A DNA stretch of 64,000 nucleotides from an uncultured Lachnospiraceae bacterium (GTDB lineage: Bacteria; Bacillota; Clostridia; Lachnospirales; Lachnospiraceae): positions 696 to 64,695 of the forward strand of contig CAJTOL010000017.1 of assembly GCA_910577645.1 (NCBI GenBank), written 5' to 3'. Within the stretch, counting starts at the first letter, position 1, and each line of letters begins with the position of its first letter. Shown piece by piece: positions 1 through 4,176 of the stretch. The notes beneath the pieces were generated by a model. The model was not told where the DNA came from. It did not search any database and worked only from the letters and a program-made list of their open reading frames with translations. A program made the position numbers and the translations under genes.

Positions 1-17
1 TAAGCCATACATACTTT

Positions 18-806
18 ATGCTGAATACGGCACAGGCAAAAATGGCGGATATTTGCGTATCGCTGGCATTCAGCCAGCAAAATAATTACAAGTGCCCCTG
101 TCTCAATGGCAGGGGCAGGAAAGGAGATAAAAAATGGGGAATCTTGATTCTTAAGATTCTAGCTATCCTAATTTTAACCGTATGCACAGGCATGGTTATC
201 TTTATTCTTGCCAGTGCAATAATTAGTAATCTCGAAAAAATCATCATTACCATTGGCTCTGTCGACTGTATTACAGCTATTTTCCTTAACTTTTTTAAGA
301 AGAAAGAGCCTGCCCCGGCGTTACCAGACAACTCTATCATAGAATATGACCCTATTTCTTTGGAATCCACCTATAAGATGCTCCGCCAAAACCTTTGTTC
401 TGTGATTGGGGATACCGCAGAAATTACCAAGTTGAGAAAGCCTGTAACGTTAAGCCAGGTGGATGCTCCTACACATTTTGATATTGTTTCGAAATGTGCC
501 ATTTATCACTTCCTTGTTCTAAAGCTGGCCGAAGAGATTGACCCCTTTACAATTACAGGTATTCTTCAAAATGCTATCGAACAGCGGCTAAATAACAATG
601 AGGCTGAAGGCATAACACAAACCAGTTTTTTCTATAACGGGCAAGTCTATCCATCCATTATGGTTGACAGGGTTCAAGATCTTGGCAACTACATCCAGGT
701 GGATGTCGCGATTGCAAGCGAATATTATTGCAAATACCGCGAGCGCCGTATTTACAATAACATGGCTCAATCCAATTCCGGAAGGCCGCAGGATAAATAT
801 TTCTAA
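18..806 (+). CDS. Hypothetical membrane protein of the integrated element
   Basis: 262-aa ORF with a hydrophobic stretch (ILILKILAILILTVCTGMVIFILASAII). Its stop overlaps the next start (TAATGATG), suggesting translational coupling. The start codon is uncertain. Confidence 0.45.
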   Translation: MLNTAQAKMADICVSLAFSQQNNYKCPCLNGRGRKGDKKWGILILKILAILILTVCTGMVIFILASAIISNLEKIIITIGSVDCITAIFLNFFKKKEPAPALPDNSIIEYDPISLESTYKMLRQNLCSVIGDTAEITKLRKPVTLSQVDAPTHFDIVSKCAIYHFLVLKLAEEIDPFTITGILQNAIEQRLNNNEAEGITQTSFFYNGQVYPSIMVDRVQDLGNYIQVDVAIASEYYCKYRERRIYNNMAQSNSGRPQDKYF

Positions 807-1552
807 TGATGAAAAACATTGAATTATTTATCCAGGAAGATTTTTATCATCATGGAGTCATGCAGTATGTTCCTTGGAATCCGGCCACAGCTCCGCATAT
901 TGTAATATTCGGGGCCACCGGAACTGGCAAAACCTATGCCACCAAGTTAATGCTGGGCCGTATTTCCATACAATGCCCAGATTCCTGTATCTATGTATGT
1001 GATTTTAAAGGCGATTCCGATTTTTCCTTTTTAGAGGGGGAATCCCGTTTCTTCCGGTTCTTCGATTGTGAAAAAGGGCTGTCCATCTTCTATGATGAAT
1101 TCCAAAAGCGCCAGTCCGGCCAGGACAGCCGCCGCCATTTCCTGCTCCTCTTTTTTGATGAATGGGCCAGCTATATACTAAACCTGGATAAAAAGAAGGC
1201 AGAGGACGAAAAGAAAAAGCTGGCTTCTTTATTAATGCTGGGACGTTCCTTTAACGTCCATGTACTTATCAGCCAGCAGAGGGTAGACGCTTCTTATTTT
1301 AACGCCGCACGGGATAACTTCAATTTGGTAGTTGCCCTGGGCAACTTATCAGAAGAGGGGAAGGAAATGATGTTCCGTGAATTTAAAGACAGGATGAAGC
1401 CAGACCGGAAACAGGGAACCGGTTACATGCTTACCAACGGGACGGATTTTACCCCTATTCTGGTTCCATCTATCTCCAACATGGAACGCCTGCACCACTG
1501 TATCAAGCAGGCTGTAACCCGTTTACCTTTGCCGGGGGCGTGCAAAGCGTAA
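806..1552 (+). CDS. FtsK/SpoIIIE-like (TcpA/Orf21-type) P-loop DNA-translocase/coupling ATPase
   Basis: Walker A is IVIFGATGTGKTY (about 911..934) and Walker B-like is LLLFFDEWAS. Size and context are typical of small conjugative or mobilizable elements. Confidence 0.7.
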   Translation: MMKNIELFIQEDFYHHGVMQYVPWNPATAPHIVIFGATGTGKTYATKLMLGRISIQCPDSCIYVCDFKGDSDFSFLEGESRFFRFFDCEKGLSIFYDEFQKRQSGQDSRRHFLLLFFDEWASYILNLDKKKAEDEKKKLASLLMLGRSFNVHVLISQQRVDASYFNAARDNFNLVVALGNLSEEGKEMMFREFKDRMKPDRKQGTGYMLTNGTDFTPILVPSISNMERLHHCIKQAVTRLPLPGACKA

Positions 1553-1563
1553 GCCCCCGGTCG

Positions 1564-1582
1564 CAGGCGGCAAAGCCGCCTG
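1564..1582 (+). terminator. GC-rich hairpin downstream of the FtsK-like gene (CAGGCGGC-AAA-GCCGCCTG)
   Basis: Perfect 8-bp stem with a 3-nt loop, 12 nt after the stop codon. No clear T-run follows, so it may be a structural or ori-accessory hairpin instead. Confidence 0.35.
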
Positions 1583-1588
1583 CCCTTA

Positions 1589-1620
1589 CCGAAGTTGTGC
1601 TAGTATTACCACAACTTCGG
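1589..1620 (+). other. Replication/transfer origin-like stem-loop: 11-bp perfect stem with a 10-nt loop containing TAGTATTAC
   Basis: CCGAAGTTGTG (1589..1599) pairs perfectly with CACAACTTCGG (1610..1620). The loop CTAGTATTAC (1600..1609) carries the canonical circovirus/nanovirus nonanucleotide at 1601..1609. It lies about 100 nt upstream of the Rep start. Confidence 0.7.
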
Positions 1621-1721
1621 TGCCAGTGTCAAAAATTAATAAAACCCTTTATTATCAATGGCTCCAGCATATACCCATTTTGTGTCATCTCTGTGCCGGA
1701 GCCATAGAAAGGAACTATCCT

Positions 1722-2629
1722 ATGTCAACAGTCAAAAGAAAGAAAAAAATAATCAATAACCGGCGGAGCCGGAAATATCAGATAACTATTAATAATCCGG
1801 AAAAACACAAAAACTGCTCTCGTCAGGCAATCAAGAAAAAATTAAAACAATGGGAACATATCACCTACTGGTGCATGTGTGACGAGACAGCAGAGGAAAA
1901 CCGTTCTTATATTTTAAAAGAAGGAAAATGGAAGGATACGGAAAAAAGGAGACCAATCTGAGAGATACCTTTGAAGAATGGGGAACCATGCCCAAGGCAG
2001 GACAGGGGAGGCGCAATGATTTAGCAAATCTTTACCAGATGATTAAAGACGGATACTCCAATGTTGAAATTATGGAAATGAATCCAGACAATCTTTTAAA
2101 TCTGCAACACATAGACAAGGCCCGTCTTGAAATCCTGTCCAATCAGTACCGGACACAAAGACGTACCAATCTCCTTGTTACTTACGTATCCGGCCCCACC
2201 GGCTACGGAAAATCCAGACAGATTTTAGACACTCATGGAGATTCCGACGTCTATCGTGTAACAGATTACAAACACCCCTTCGATACTTATTCAGGAGAAG
2301 ATGTACTTGTATTTGAGGAATTCAGGAACGATCTGCCTATTGGAATCATGCTGAATTATTTGGATATTTATCCTTTGCAGCTTCCAGCCCGTTACAATAA
2401 CCGGCAGGCGTGCTATAACTTTGTTTATCTGGTTTCAAATTGGAAACTGGAAGACCAATACCACAATATCTCTTCCGAACAGCCAGCTACATGGAAGGCA
2501 TTTATCCGGCGAATTCACAAAATACGTATCTATACGTCCCCTGGAATATGGACAGAATTTAACACGAATGACTATCTGAACGGTTTCCGACCGGCAGATA
2601 TCAATGAAGTACCTTTTAATAACAATTAA
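1722..2629 (+). pseudogene. CRESS-like rolling-circle Rep (HUH endonuclease + SF3 helicase), disrupted by a frameshift and apparently lacking motif II
   Basis: Motif I is YQITINNPE and motif III is YILKEGKW. No HUH motif is seen between them. SF3 Walker A is GPTGYGKS, Walker B is VLVFEEF and motif C is LVSNW. The two ORFs (1722..1961 and 1928..2629) join if the A6 run at 1942..1947 is read as A7. Confidence 0.65.
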
Positions 2630-2812: not shown

Positions 2813-4027
2813 ATGGACACTTTAAAAAATCCTTCAGAAACTTTTCCTCTTTCTTTATTGAAAGATGCCATAGACTACGGTATAATTTCTGTAGACAGTG
2901 TGCTTGGTACGCTTATGTCTACAAAAAGAGAGAAAATCAAAAAAATACATGCCTATGCAATCACTCCGCCATCCAAAGAAGGCGGCCGCTGGCAGACCTG
3001 CTACAAAGGGCCTGACGGCAGGCGTAAAAATATCAAAGCACATTCAGAAGAAGAGTTATTGGATAAACTAATTCCTATCTACTTCCAAAACCTGCACCTT
3101 GACAAAATGACGTTTCATGAACTATATGAAGAATGGCTGGAATACAAAAAGGGCGTAACCAACAGCCCCAATACCATCAAGCGCCATAAACAGCACTACC
3201 GGAAATATTTTGAACCATCTTCACTGGATGGAAAGAAGATCCGTCATGTAGATGAACTTCTGCTAGAGGCAGAGTGCAACCGCATTGTCAAAGAATTTAA
3301 CCTTCCGCGTAAAGAATGGTGCAATATCAAAACGATTCTGAATGGCATGTTCGAGTATGCCGTTAGAAAAAAATATCTGACAGAAAATCCTATGGATAAG
3401 GTGAAGATACTTGTAAAGTTTAAGCAGGTGGTAAGGAAGACCGGCAAAACAGAGACCTATAATTCGGATGAATTGAAGGAATTGAACCTTTACCTTGACT
3501 GTATGTATATGGAAACAGGAGACAGGGCCTTTCTGGCTGTCAAACTGAACTTTCTGCTGGGCCTGCGTGTTGGAGAACTGGTAGCTTTAAAGTGGGAGGA
3601 TTACTGCAACATCAACCATCTTCATATCGTGCGTGAAGAAGTTAGAAATCAGGATACAAACCAATATGAGATTGTAGAACACACCAAGACAAACCGCGAC
3701 CGTTTTGTGGTTCTGGTTCCAAAGGCAGTCAATCTTTTACAAAAGCTGGACCGGGACGGAGACTATATTTTCATGAGGGACGGAAACCGTATTACTTCAA
3801 GACAGATAGCTTATGTCCTAGAAAAATACGCACAGCGTCAGGGAGTAGCAACCAAGTCCACCCACAAGATGCGGAAAACCTTTGCCAGCAACCTAAATGC
3901 CAACGGAGTGCCATTAGACTGTATACGGGAACTGTTAGGGCACAGCAGTCTATCCACAACCTTGGGCTATATCTACAATCCATTGACGGAAAAAGAGACT
4001 TATGACCTCATTTCCAAAGCTTTGTAG
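2813..4027 (+). CDS. int: Tyrosine-type site-specific integrase
   Basis: 404 aa. The C-terminal catalytic region has [17 protein letters not shown] and [15 protein letters not shown] (R..H..R..H..Y pattern). It lies adjacent to a tRNA 3' end. Confidence 0.85.
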
Positions 4028-4098: not shown

Positions 4099-4104
4099 AA
4101 AAAA

Positions 4105-4176
4105 AGCGCGAGACGGGATTCGAACCCGCGGCCCCCACCTTGGCAAGGTGGTGCTCCACCACTGAGCCACTCGCGC
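4105..4176 (-). tRNA. tRNA-Gly (anticodon GCC)
   Basis: Hand-folded cloverleaf with acceptor GCGCGAG/CTCGCGC, anticodon stem CCACC/GGTGG with loop TTGCCAA, and T-arm GCGGG-TTCGAAT-CCCGT. 72 nt, CCA not encoded. Confidence 0.9.

What the first reader, a model, noticed from the sequence alone, without database searches (positions are those of the whole stretch)
1589..1620. Circovirus-type origin hairpin (TAGTATTAC in the loop of a perfect 11-bp stem) inside a bacterial integrated element
Seen: CCGAAGTTGTG-CTAGTATTAC-CACAACTTCGG. The loop carries TAGTATTAC at 1601..1609. The hairpin lies about 100 nt upstream of, and on the same strand as, a Rep gene with CRESS-type motifs.

Established knowledge: (T/n)A(G/t)TATTAC at the apex of a stem-loop is the nick site of circovirus, nanovirus and geminivirus Reps and of related bacterial plasmid Reps. 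Cleavage occurs between positions 7 and 8.

Inference: this is the nick site (dso or oriT) of the element. It would link a eukaryotic-virus-like replication module to an FtsK-like translocase and a tyrosine integrase.
Basis: partly seen in the sequence, partly recalled or inferred. Interest (0 to 1): 0.65.

Follow-up and report, generated by a model that had tools for sequence, protein, structure and literature searches.

The report
Circovirus-type replication origin in bacterial element
The hairpin is real and is very probably the site where the replication protein of a small mobile element of gut Clostridia nicks its DNA; it carries the same nine-base signal as circoviruses, but the element type is already described and this copy's replication gene is broken.

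Summary
Window 1588-1621 is a perfect 12-bp stem with the loop C-TAGTATTAC, 101 nt upstream of a Rep gene on the same strand.

In 77 of 102 related loci, NAGTATTAC sits in the loop of a perfect stem of at least 6 bp upstream of rep. There are 34 different stem sequences, and AGTATTACC is invariant. Short repeats (iterons) specific to each lineage follow the right arm.

The same layout occurs in the free plasmid p4M and in circular filamentous-phage genomes that carry a related Rep. The Rep family matches the solved porcine circovirus 2 Rep over both domains (E = 1e-16).

The hairpin is therefore the nick site (plus-strand origin, possibly also oriT) of a pCRESS2-type integrated plasmid, also classed as an IME of class Rel_PF02407. 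The element comprises an OB-fold SSB, a membrane protein, an FtsK/TcpA-like ATPase, the origin, Rep and a tyrosine integrase, next to tRNA-Gly.

The link between Rep, FtsK-like ATPase and integrase is already published (Kazlauskas 2019; Coluzzi 2017). I found no published description of the origin itself.

The window's Rep is a pseudogene. A 108-nt deletion removes the HUH motif, and there is also a frameshift. Here the origin is orphaned or usable only in trans. No nicking or replication has been shown.

Verdict: a new member of a known kind, of moderate interest.

The parts
1..85 (+). 3' end of an 83-aa OB-fold, SSB-like gene. Its start lies outside the window.
   Evidence: L122 is near-identical DNA (3 mismatches in 1901 nt) that extends 1806 nt to the left of the window, and it holds the whole gene. 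The AF2 model (pLDDT 88) is an OB fold closest to the RPA, LEF-3 and SSB ssDNA-binding domains. Kazlauskas 2019 list SSB proteins among the genes shared by pCRESS1-3 elements and annotate one pCRESS2 protein as 'SSB (2k5d-like)'. I did not compare that protein with this one.
42..806 (+). orfA, a conserved membrane protein with two predicted N-terminal TM helices and no family hit. The start is uncertain (18, 42 or 192). Its stop overlaps the ATG of the ATPase gene (TAATG).
   Evidence: orfA is conserved directly upstream of the ATPase in L002, L004, L010, L011, L014 and others.
806..1552 (+). Short (248 aa) FtsK/SpoIIIE/TcpA-like P-loop ATPase, consisting of the motor domain only.
   Evidence: Pfam, NCBIfam and PHROG give weak FtsK/HerA/EccC/TraB hits. 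Homologs are all about 237 aa and carry PF01580/PF01935. The AF2 model (pLDDT 91) is closest to the FtsK motor, EccC and the pCW3 coupling protein TcpA, with TM 0.70-0.74. It is not Zot/pI.
1532..1583 (+). Two G+C-rich hairpins upstream of the origin hairpin. HP1 is 1532-1560, around the stop codon of the ATPase gene. HP2 is 1563-1583 (GCAGGCGGC-AAA-GCCGCCTGC).
   Evidence: HP2 pairs covary in 26 close relatives: 80-87% of cells are paired, and eight of its nine pairs show changes on both sides. Their function is unknown; they may be a single-strand origin or an accessory origin structure.
1588..1621 (+). Origin hairpin with a 12-bp perfect stem and the 10-nt loop C-TAGTATTAC.
   Evidence: It is conserved in position, and its stem covaries, in 77 of 102 related loci.
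1601..1609 (+). Nonamer TAGTATTAC. The predicted nick lies between T1607 and A1608.
   Evidence: AGTATTAC plus the following C is invariant in 64 distinct sequences. The cleavage position is inferred from circovirus Rep, which nicks AxTAxT/AC. It was not measured.
1620..1631 (+). Tandem iterons 1 and 2 (GTGCCA GTGTCA), abutting the right arm.
   Evidence: Relatives have CTTCnGTGTCAGTGTCA here, which is nearly invariant in the close clade. Other lineages carry other repeats at the same place: TGTCGCA, TGTGACA, TGTAACA, GAACAA. Four GTGYCR copies in 112 nt has P about 7e-8.
1626..1655 (+). Promoter-like site for rep (GTGTCA, 18-nt spacer, TATTAT), with its -35 hexamer inside iteron 2.
   Evidence: 9 of 12 matches. 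The -10 hexamer is TAAAAT in most relatives. This is a consensus match only.
1655..1708 (+). Inverted repeat HP4 (arms 1655-1669 and 1694-1708). It encloses or overlaps iterons 3 (GTGTCA, 1682-1687) and 4 (GTGCCG, 1693-1698), just upstream of the rep ribosome-binding site.
   Evidence: 77% of cells are paired, and 9 of 15 pairs show changes on both sides.
1722..2629 (+). Rep pseudogene (CRESS-type HUH nuclease plus SF3 helicase). A 108-nt in-frame deletion at about 1886-1898 removes motif II (HTH). One base is missing at about 1947, which splits the gene into ORFs 1722-1961 and 1928-2629.
   Evidence: Intact homologs are about 335 aa and hit PF02407. The family profile matches the solved PCV2 Rep 7lar over residues 12-308, E = 1.2e-16.
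2813..4027 (+). Tyrosine integrase.
   Evidence: PF00589, E = 9e-24.
4099..4176 (-). Right end of the element (attR region) and tRNA-Gly(GCC) at 4105-4176. The integrase gene faces the 3' end of the tRNA.
   Evidence: Contigs of other tRNA-Gly loci match the window only from 4099-4105 onward. The left end is outside the window. Complete relatives show 24-bp direct repeats at tRNA-Cys: L010 242..8193 and L011 414..8193.

Best explanation
The hairpin is the plus-strand origin of a small integrative element of Lachnospiraceae, that is, the site where the element's Rep nicks the DNA. The element belongs to the pCRESS2 'integrated plasmids', which correspond to IMEs of class Rel_PF02407.

Proposed mechanism, with each step marked as shown or inferred:
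1. After excision by the tyrosine integrase, Rep binds the tandem GTGYCR iterons next to the right arm of the stem. This is inferred from conservation and from porcine circovirus.
2. The stem-loop is extruded or melted, and the HUH nuclease cuts TAGTATT/AC between T1607 and A1608. The motif III tyrosine becomes linked to the 5' phosphate. This is inferred.
3. The SF3 helicase domain of Rep unwinds the DNA, and a host polymerase extends the 3'-OH (rolling-circle replication). This is inferred from the family.
4. Because iteron 2 overlaps the -35 hexamer of the rep promoter, Rep probably also represses its own gene. This is inferred.
5. The displaced strand, coated by the OB-fold SSB, may be handed to the FtsK/TcpA-like ATPase for transfer to another cell, so the same site would also serve as oriT. 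This step is speculative.

In this window the cognate Rep is dead: the HUH motif is deleted and the gene is frameshifted. Here the intact hairpin is either a recent relic or a site that only a related Rep supplied in trans could use.
For: - Sequence: a perfect 12-bp stem with TAGTATTAC in the loop, on the same strand as rep and 121 nt upstream of it.
- Conservation: 77 of 102 related loci have NAGTATTAC (69 TAGTATTAC, 7 AAGTATTAC, 1 CAGTATTAC) in the loop of a perfect stem of at least 6 bp, within -500..+60 of the rep start. The median distance is 121 nt. In 1.21 Mb of control sequence from the same loci there are 11 nonamers, 5 of them in stems. One search had found hairpins elsewhere on the rep strand in five loci (L059, L070, L084, L085, L105). 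The counts imply that four of the five control stems are such relocated origins.
- Covariation: there are 34 different stem sequences. Cognate arms pair over a median of 9 bp, against 2 bp for swapped arms. Compensatory changes occur within the close clade. AGTATTACC is invariant.
- Iterons: lineage-specific short repeats abut the right arm and recur 55-80 nt downstream. In the window, four GTGYCR copies fall in 112 nt, P about 7e-8. Porcine circovirus has the same geometry: Rep binds hexamers H1/H2 beside the right arm, represses its own promoter and nicks AxTAxT/AC (PMC2690592).
- Protein: intact homologs hit PF02407. The family profile matches the solved PCV2 Rep over both domains, E = 1.2e-16.
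- Autonomous replicons with the same module:
  - Plasmid p4M has an FtsK-like gene, a GC hairpin, a hairpin with TAGTGTTAC in its loop, GTACCAGTACCA and then RepA.
  - Circular inovirus genomes and contigs have a Zot gene, a TAGTATTAC hairpin and then Rep.
  - A 2.19-kb circle carries only Rep and the hairpin.
- Element context: the ATPase has an FtsK/TcpA-like fold, the upstream protein is an OB-fold SSB, and an integrase lies next to a tRNA gene. Direct repeats flank complete relatives.
Against: - No cleavage, replication or transfer has been measured for any member of this family, as far as the searched papers show.
- The Rep beside this hairpin is a pseudogene, and there is no second copy in the window.
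- In four public runs the element has about the same depth as neighbouring chromosomal contigs. Only assembled contigs were available, so read starts at the nick and circular junctions could not be examined.
- 25 of 102 relatives lack a canonical hairpin at the usual place. Some have it elsewhere or in a degenerate form (L006, L021, L034, L067, L087), and for about a dozen none was found in the DNA held.
- The promoter and the iteron-binding role rest on consensus and analogy only.
Confidence: 0.85

Rival explanations
1. The site works mainly as an origin of transfer. Rep acts as a relaxase, and the FtsK/TcpA-like ATPase with its membrane partner orfA acts as a coupling protein. The coupling protein would deliver the Rep-bound single strand to the type IV secretion system of a helper conjugative element (the IME model of Coluzzi and Guedon). 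Any replication would be secondary. This overlaps with the best explanation; the difference is which process the nick serves.
For: 75 of the 123 related loci held then (L001-L123) have the FtsK-like ATPase gene directly upstream of the hairpin and rep. The ATPase model superposes on TcpA of pCW3 with the best TM-score and rmsd (0.73-0.74, 3.6-3.7 A) of the hits listed. An OB-fold SSB and an integrase accompany it. Coluzzi 2017 and Guedon 2017 class PF02407 Reps next to TcpA-type proteins as putative relaxases. From my own knowledge, not checked here, oriT of Tn916 and of ICEBs1 also lies between the FtsK-like coupling-protein gene and an RCR-type relaxase gene.
Against: No mobilisation has been shown for any PF02407 element; it is listed as 'proposed' in the table quoted. 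The same Rep and hairpin module occurs in replicons without any FtsK-like gene: Zot-bearing circles and a Rep-only circle. That argues for replication as the core function. The ATPase is only 248 aa and lacks its own membrane anchor. PLSDB types p4M as non-mobilizable, though that typing does not know this Rep class.
Confidence: 0.3
2. The element is a cryptic or reduced filamentous prophage, or a satellite of one. In that case the hairpin would be the origin that produces single-stranded genomes for extrusion, and the P-loop ATPase would act in export rather than conjugation.
For: Reps 42-47% identical are encoded by complete circular genomes deposited as Inoviridae (bajarodino viruses). In these a genuine Zot/pI ATPase gene lies upstream of rep, directly so in PQ006121, where the TAGTATTAC hairpin lies between the two genes. 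The circular IMG/VR contig L104 is similar. The order 'ATPase, hairpin, Rep' is the same in both kinds of element.
Against: The window's ATPase is FtsK/SpoIIIE-like, not Zot. It has no pairwise similarity to the bajarodino Zot proteins and falls in different PHROG families. No coat-protein-like set and no large adsorption protein is evident in the window, in L122 or in the complete element L010, whose remaining genes include a TIR-domain protein. Kazlauskas 2019 found no known viral structural proteins in pCRESS elements.
Confidence: 0.07
3. The hairpin is only a transcription terminator of the ATPase gene, or an operator for rep. On this reading the nonamer would be a coincidence or a relic with no cleavage function.
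For: It lies between two genes on the same strand. Repeats around it overlap a promoter-like site.
Against: No T-run follows the stem, and the terminator scan does not call it. A terminator would not keep an invariant 9-nt loop across 34 different stems. The loop equals the known cleavage motif of homologous Reps.
Confidence: 0.03

Closest known systems
pCRESS2 integrated plasmids (Kazlauskas, Varsani, Koonin and Krupovic 2019, PMC6668415), for example CloMet-E1 and CloCit-E1 in tRNA-Gly
   Same: The Rep is about 335 aa, with an HUH nuclease and an SF3 helicase. Walker B has glutamates and motif C has Asn. The elements carry an FtsK-like ATPase, a small SSB and a tyrosine integrase, are integrated at tRNA genes with short direct repeats, and live in Clostridia hosts. 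L012 comes from Clostridium sp. AT5, whose Rep is in their tree next to CloCit-E1 and close to the pCRESS2 element CloMet-E1.
   Different: Text searches of that paper's main text and supplements find no nonanucleotide, stem-loop or iterons described for these elements. The origin defined here adds that. The window copy has a broken Rep and is cut by the window start.
IMEs of streptococci with a Rel_PF02407 'relaxase' and a TcpA-type coupling protein (Coluzzi 2017, PMC5357655; Guedon 2017, PMC5704250)
   Same: The gene set is the same: tyrosine integrase, PF02407 Rep and an FtsK/TcpA-like ATPase. The integration logic is also the same.
   Different: The host family and Rep subgroup differ; the streptococcal elements fall in pCRESS1. 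No oriT was defined for them, and transfer is proposed rather than shown.
Origin of replication of porcine circoviruses, and of nanoviruses
   Same: The nonamer (T/A)AGTATTAC sits in the loop of a stem-loop of about 11 bp, on the rep-sense strand and upstream of rep. Tandem hexamers lie next to the right arm, and the rep promoter overlaps the origin. The Reps are homologous in both domains.
   Different: Here the replicon is a bacterial integrative element of about 8 kb, with no capsid gene. Its motif II is HTH rather than HLQ, and its iteron sequence is GTGYCR.
Plasmid p4M of Bifidobacterium pseudocatenulatum (NC_003527)
   Same: It has an FtsK/SpoIIIE gene, a G+C-rich hairpin, a nonamer hairpin, tandem hexamers and then RepA, in the same order and on the same strand.
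   Different: p4M is a free 4.5-kb plasmid without an integrase. Its nonamer is TAGTGTTAC and its iterons are GTACCA. Its Rep is only 34% identical over 72% of the query.
Bajarodino viruses (GenBank PQ006121, PQ006124 and others; deposited as Inoviridae)
   Same: The Reps are 42-47% identical. A TAGTATTAC hairpin with adjacent iterons lies upstream of rep, and a P-loop ATPase gene lies upstream of rep, directly so in PQ006121.
   Different: Their ATPase is a true Zot/pI morphogenesis protein. They carry phage-like small proteins and a large putative adsorption protein, and no integrase is annotated. They are circular genomes from faeces.

Membership tests
CRESS-type rolling-circle origin (circovirus/nanovirus type) | Nonanucleotide NANTATTAC at the apex of a stem-loop | tested here: met
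   TAGTATTAC at 1601-1609 lies in the 10-nt loop of a perfect 12-bp stem.
CRESS-type rolling-circle origin (circovirus/nanovirus type) | The nonamer is conserved while the stem sequence varies but keeps pairing, across related replicons | tested here: met
   77 of 102 loci; 34 stem types; AGTATTACC invariant; cognate arms pair over a median of 9 bp against 2 bp for swapped arms.
CRESS-type rolling-circle origin (circovirus/nanovirus type) | Iterated Rep-binding sequences next to the stem-loop | tested here: met
   GTGYCR occurs four times in the window (P about 7e-8). Lineage-specific repeats occupy the same position in relatives. Binding itself was not tested.
CRESS-type rolling-circle origin (circovirus/nanovirus type) | A cognate Rep with HUH motifs I-III and an SF3 helicase is encoded nearby | tested here: inconclusive
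   This is met in intact relatives. In the window copy motif II is deleted and the gene is frameshifted.
CRESS-type rolling-circle origin (circovirus/nanovirus type) | Rep cleaves between positions 7 and 8 of the nonamer and starts rolling-circle replication | not testable with these tools
   This needs a nicking assay or 5'-end mapping. Only assembled contigs of public runs were available.
pCRESS2 integrated plasmid (Kazlauskas 2019) | The Rep groups with pCRESS2 (p4M-like cluster), with Glu-Glu in Walker B and Asn in motif C | tested here: met
   The alignment shows VFEEF and SN. Relative L012 is from Clostridium sp. AT5, whose Rep is in their tree next to CloCit-E1 and close to the pCRESS2 element CloMet-E1. 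No tree was built here.
pCRESS2 integrated plasmid (Kazlauskas 2019) | Accompanying FtsK-like ATPase, SSB and tyrosine integrase | tested here: met
pCRESS2 integrated plasmid (Kazlauskas 2019) | Site-specific integration flanked by direct repeats (att sites), usually at a tRNA gene | tested here: inconclusive
   The right end abuts tRNA-Gly. The left end is outside the window and is not in L122. 24-bp repeats were found for the relatives L010 and L011.
Integrative and mobilizable element, class Rel_PF02407 with TcpA | Own integrase plus a relaxase-like protein plus a coupling-protein-like ATPase, and no mating-pore genes | tested here: met
   The gene content of the window, L122 and the complete L010 element fits. 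The ATPase fold resembles TcpA. The Rep is inactive in this copy.
Integrative and mobilizable element, class Rel_PF02407 with TcpA | Transfer from its oriT by a helper conjugative element | not testable with these tools
   This needs mating assays.
Inovirus (filamentous prophage) | Zot/pI-type morphogenesis ATPase | tested here: not met
   The window ATPase hits the FtsK/SpoIIIE PHROG, not the Zot/pI PHROGs that the bajarodino proteins hit, and there is no BLASTP similarity.
Inovirus (filamentous prophage) | A set of small single-TM coat proteins and a large adsorption protein | tested here: inconclusive
   None is evident among the ORFs of the window, L122 or L010. No dedicated coat-protein search was run.
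Intrinsic transcription terminator | A G+C-rich stem followed by a run of T | tested here: not met
   The stem is followed by GCCAGTGTCAAAAATT, and the terminator scan does not call it.

The most novel reading that the evidence does not exclude
One Rep and TAGTATTAC origin module serves three kinds of bacterial replicon:
- integrative elements with an FtsK/TcpA-like ATPase;
- filamentous phages with a Zot ATPase;
- minimal circles that carry only Rep.

In the integrative elements, the circovirus-type nick site would double as an origin of transfer. A CRESS-type Rep would then act as a conjugative relaxase, feeding single-stranded DNA to a split FtsK/TcpA-like pump (orfA plus the ATPase). That pump would work either through a helper's secretion system or, more radically, on its own, as in actinomycete AICEs. 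This would be a new route of horizontal transfer in gut Firmicutes. It would also be a living model for the plasmid-to-virus transition proposed for CRESS-DNA viruses.
Probability: 0.3. Interest if true: 0.65.

Novelty: new member of a known kind. Interest (0 to 1): 0.4.

Why it matters
The finding supplies the missing cis-acting site for a large family of mobile elements in gut Clostridia: 1086 Rep homologs were found. The published descriptions of these elements list only proteins.

It shows that the origin itself, and not only the Rep protein, is shared between bacterial elements and circoviruses or nanoviruses. The shared features are the nonamer, the stem-loop and the iterons beside the right arm. 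This strengthens the published scenario that CRESS-DNA viruses derive from such plasmids.

It also gives a precise substrate for experiments: a nicking assay, replication of a cloned origin and mobilisation tests. The sharing of this module with Zot-bearing filamentous phages and with plasmid p4M points to module exchange between plasmids, IMEs and phages.

For this particular window it is ordinary annotation: a decayed copy of a known element type.

Tried and rejected
- **Chance.** The nonamer alone is not significant in 64 kb. I rejected chance only after the comparative test.
- **Column-wise covariation on all 64 hairpins.** MAFFT shifted the 3' arms because loop sizes differ. I used an arm-swap test instead and restricted column counts to the 26 close relatives.
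- **Read-level evidence for a nick, a circular form or amplification.** All 24 runs found are kept as assembled contigs only. These show presence and depth but no read starts or junctions.
- **Left end of the element.** No repeat of the tRNA-Gly end lies in the 1.8 kb upstream held in L122. The longer contigs that carry the same proteins were not returned.
- **HelP/DUF961 identity of the 83-aa protein.** Pfam, NCBIfam and PHROGs give no hit. A profile search of PDB sequences gives none either. The model is a generic OB fold of SSB/RPA type, and 2k5d is not among the top 50 matches.
- **Inovirus identity of the element.** Rejected because the ATPase is not Zot.
- **Known RNA family.** Only a sub-threshold tfoR match on the minus strand (22 bits against a gathering score of 70), which I take as chance.
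- **Terminator.** Not called.
- **Literature.** I searched for a prior description of this origin with the terms pCRESS, nonanucleotide, TAGTATTAC, p4M and bajarodino and found none in the library held. Subscription papers, for example Gibbs et al. 2006 on p4M, could not be read.
Full report
**1. The observation**

Window 1588-1621 reads ACCGAAGTTGTG / C-TAGTATTAC / CACAACTTCGGT. The loop is 10 nt, and TAGTATTAC lies at 1601-1609 as stated. The repeat finder and the single-strand fold both recover it.

The nonamer occurs once in the 64-kb window. That alone is unremarkable: 0.25 copies are expected and 23 of 100 shuffles have at least one. The case therefore rests on the combination of nonamer, perfect flanking stem and position. 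The hairpin ends 101 nt upstream of the ATG (1722) of a Rep-like gene on the same strand.

**2. The surrounding element**

The genes, all on the plus strand, are as follows:
- the last 28 codons of a small gene (1-85);
- a membrane protein, orfA (to 806);
- a 248-aa P-loop ATPase (806-1552);
- the hairpin region;
- the Rep gene (1722-2629);
- a tyrosine integrase (2813-4027).

tRNA-Gly and tRNA-Phe follow on the minus strand. The window starts inside the element. A near-identical contig, L122, extends 1.8 kb further left and shows that the first gene encodes 83 aa.

An AlphaFold model of that 83-aa family (pLDDT 88) is an OB fold. It is closest to the ssDNA-binding domains of RPA, LEF-3 and SSB.

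The ATPase family is uniformly about 237 aa and carries FtsK_SpoIIIE/DUF87 Pfam hits. Its model (pLDDT 91) superposes on the FtsK motor, on EccC and on the pCW3 coupling protein TcpA, with TM 0.70-0.74.

Contigs of other tRNA-Gly loci match the window only from 4099-4105 onward. This places the right end of the element there.

**3. The Rep gene is broken in this copy**

Intact homologs are about 335 aa. They have these motifs:
- motif I, YQLTxNNP;
- motif II, HTH;
- motif III, YIxKxGK;
- Walker A, GxxGxGKS/T;
- Walker B, VFEEF;
- motif C, SN.

They hit Pfam Viral_Rep, PF02407. The family profile matches the solved full-length porcine circovirus 2 Rep (7lar) over residues 12-308 with E = 1.2e-16. 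It also matches several circovirus and nanovirus nuclease domains.

Against its closest relatives, the window lacks 108 nt in frame, which removes motif II. The deletion lies between two GCAnAG repeats. The window also lacks one base near 1947, which splits the gene into two ORFs. There is no other Rep copy in the window.

Contigs in two other public runs from mouse-gut material carry the 108 nt. Whether that allele is intact could not be decided from contig summaries.

**4. Conservation of the hairpin**

Protein-based searches do not select for the hairpin. They returned 13 genome loci, 80 metagenome loci and 28 viral contigs.

- In 12 of the 13 genome loci, TAGTATTAC sits in the loop of a perfect 7-12-bp stem at the same place. 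The thirteenth (L006) has the nonamer with a partly degraded stem.
- 102 loci have a recognisable Rep N-terminus and at least 300 nt of upstream DNA. In 77 of them, NAGTATTAC lies in the loop of a perfect stem of at least 6 bp, within -500..+60 of the rep start. Of these, 69 have TAGTATTAC, 7 have AAGTATTAC and 1 has CAGTATTAC. The median distance is 121 nt.
- The remaining 1.21 Mb of the same loci, both strands, holds only 11 nonamers, five of them in stems. One search had found hairpins elsewhere on the rep strand in five loci. The counts imply that four of the five control stems are such relocated origins.
- The stems fall into 34 sequence types, for example gttgtg/cacaac, gtcct/aggac, ggaggttatgag/ctcataacctcc and gtttattcccg/cgggaataaac.
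- In 64 distinct sequences, AGTATTAC and the following C are invariant.
- A swap test shows that the two arms covary. Cognate arms pair over a median of 9 bp, and arms taken from different sequences over 2 bp.
- Within the 26 closest relatives, the base of the stem is 96% paired and shows compensatory changes.

This is the pattern expected of a cleavage site presented on a structure, not of a terminator. No T-run follows the stem, and the terminator scan does not call it.

**5. Iterons and promoter**

Immediately after the right arm, the close clade has CTTCnGTGTCA-GTGTCA. Two more copies lie 55-70 nt downstream, just before the ribosome-binding site of rep. In the window these are:
- GTGCCA, 1620-1625;
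- GTGTCA, 1626-1631;
- GTGTCA, 1682-1687;
- GTGCCG, 1693-1698.

That is four of the 21 plus-strand matches in the whole window, within 112 nt (P about 7e-8).

Other Rep lineages carry different repeats at the same positions: TGTCGCA, TGTGACA, TGTAACA, or GAACAA with its inverse TGTTCG. Repeat sequence therefore changes with Rep lineage, as iterons do.

A sigma-70-like promoter match (GTGTCA, 18-nt spacer, TATTAT, 1626-1655) has its -35 hexamer inside iteron 2. Relatives have TAAAAT as the -10 hexamer.

Porcine circovirus has the same layout. Rep binds hexamers H1/H2 next to the right arm, represses its own promoter through them, and nicks AxTAxT/AC between T and A (PMC2690592).

Two G+C-rich hairpins upstream (1532-1560 and 1563-1583) and an inverted repeat downstream (1655-1708) also covary. 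The 201-nt region folds far better than shuffles, z = -7.5. Their roles are open.

**6. The same module in autonomous replicons**

- Plasmid p4M of Bifidobacterium pseudocatenulatum (4.5 kb, circular) has an FtsK/SpoIIIE gene, a G+C hairpin and the hairpin GTGGGCGG / CATAGTGTTAC / CCGCCCAC. The tandem GTACCAGTACCA and then RepA follow.
- Complete circular genomes deposited as Inoviridae (bajarodino viruses) encode Reps 42-47% identical. A TAGTATTAC hairpin and iterons lie upstream of rep, and a true Zot/pI ATPase gene lies upstream of that, directly so in PQ006121.
- A 4.85-kb circular IMG/VR contig, L104, is alike: it has a Zot-like ATPase upstream of the hairpin and rep. A 2.19-kb circular contig, L101, holds only Rep and the hairpin.
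- More distant circles of 2.1-3 kb have (T/C)AGTATTAC hairpins followed by TGTGCAA repeats, on the strand opposite rep.

In these replicons no other candidate origin was seen. This supports a replication role.

By contrast, 75 of the loci have the FtsK-like ATPase directly upstream, and most of these have an integrase downstream. Complete elements of about 7.8-8 kb, flanked by 24-bp repeats at tRNA-Cys, are present in L010 and L011.

**7. What it is and how it probably works**

The hairpin is the plus-strand origin of the element. Rep would bind the iterons, cut TAGTATT/AC between T1607 and A1608, and stay linked to the 5' end through the motif III tyrosine. Its SF3 helicase would then unwind the DNA while a host polymerase extends the 3'-OH.

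What is shown: the structure, its conservation, its covariation, the iterons and the protein homology. What is inferred: binding, cleavage position, replication and autoregulation.

It is open whether the displaced strand is also exported through the FtsK/TcpA-like ATPase, which would make the site an oriT. The gene neighbourhood and the fold similarity to TcpA favour this. The occurrence of the module in replicons without such an ATPase shows that transfer is not its core role.

An inovirus identity for the window's element is not supported, because its ATPase is not Zot and no coat-protein set is evident.

In this window the Rep is dead and the element has about the depth of neighbouring chromosomal contigs in public runs. 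The intact hairpin is therefore a recent relic or a site usable only in trans.

**8. Comparison with what is known**

The element type is published. Kazlauskas et al. 2019 describe nine groups of bacterial 'pCRESS' Reps, most of them in integrated plasmids. For groups 1-3 these plasmids carry tyrosine integrases at tRNA genes, FtsK-like ATPases and SSB proteins. CloMet-E1 (335-aa Rep, tRNA-Gly) is listed as pCRESS2. Clostridium sp. AT5, the source of my L012, is in their tree next to CloCit-E1 and close to CloMet-E1.

Coluzzi 2017 and Guedon 2017 describe the same gene combination in streptococci as IMEs with a putative Rel_PF02407 relaxase and a TcpA coupling protein.

Text searches of these papers, including supplements, and of the library held found no description of a nonanucleotide, stem-loop or iterons for these elements. 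Subscription papers could not be checked.

The contribution here is therefore the definition of the origin and its spread across element types, not a new kind of element.

**9. Verdict**

The element is a new member of a known kind. Interest is moderate (0.4): the result is what a specialist would predict from the Rep family, but it makes the family directly testable and shows that the origin, not only the protein, is shared with circoviruses.

Noticed in passing
window 1886-1950: The Rep gene is a pseudogene. A 108-nt in-frame deletion between two GCAnAG repeats removes the HUH motif, and one base is missing near 1947. L123, from another metagenome, also has the 233-aa C-terminal ORF, which suggests the frameshift is shared.
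   Followed up: yes
window 1886-1941, runs X7 and X11: Contigs of two other public runs (mouse-gut 'organism A') carry 108 extra bases at the deletion point, plus single extra bases after 1916 and 1941. An undeleted allele therefore exists, but whether it is intact could not be decided. The element's depth is about that of neighbouring chromosomal contigs.
   Followed up: partly
window 1532-1583: Two G+C-rich hairpins lie just upstream of the origin hairpin. The second has a three-base loop (GCAGGCGGC-AAA-GCCGCCTGC). Relatives keep the pairing with different sequences and with loops such as GCGAAGC or GTGAAGC. They may be a single-strand origin or an accessory origin structure.
   Followed up: partly
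window 1655-1708: A 15-nt inverted repeat lies in the rep leader, and its right arm contains iteron 4. It covaries in relatives. It could be an operator or a hairpin in the mRNA leader.
   Followed up: partly
L124 (PQ006124), L125 (PQ006121), L104: Circular genomes or contigs with a true Zot/pI ATPase, two of them deposited as Inoviridae from rodent faeces. They encode a Rep of this family (42-48% identical) with a hairpin carrying TAGTATTAC (CAGTATTAC in L104) and iterons upstream of rep. No paper on them was found in the library.
   Followed up: partly
L126 (plasmid p4M, NC_003527) 2680-2775: p4M has the same origin layout between its FtsK/SpoIIIE gene and repA: a G+C hairpin, then GTGGGCGG / CATAGTGTTAC / CCGCCCAC, then GTACCAGTACCA.
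   Followed up: yes
L111-L121 (IMG/VR contigs of 2.1-3.0 kb, nine of them with the terminal overlap of a circular assembly): These are small circles with distant Reps (about 27-51% identity over the matched stretch). In L111-L120 a (T/C)AGTATTAC hairpin lies on the strand opposite rep and is followed by tandem TGTGCAA-like repeats. L121 has CAGTATTAC on the rep strand with TGTGTAA repeats. They are probably the GasCSV-like viruses that Kazlauskas 2019 place within pCRESS2.
   Followed up: no
L010 460-2778: The complete element of Anaerocolumna sedimenticola carries, as cargo on the opposite strand, a TIR-domain protein and a 412-aa protein with no family hit. This may be an anti-phage defence pair.
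   Followed up: no
L122 1-1141 (upstream of the window start): To the left of the SSB-like gene lie an A+T-rich spacer, a 72-aa acidic protein and a truncated membrane protein, both on the minus strand. No repeat of the tRNA-Gly end lies here, so the left end of the element is further away.
   Followed up: partly
L096, L098: In these viral contigs the nonamer lies just 3' of a short G+C hairpin rather than in a loop. This is a variant origin geometry.
   Followed up: no
window 1520-1624, minus strand: A sub-threshold Rfam match to the sRNA tfoR (22 bits; gathering score 70; E = 0.03). It is most likely an effect of the clustered hairpins.
   Followed up: no
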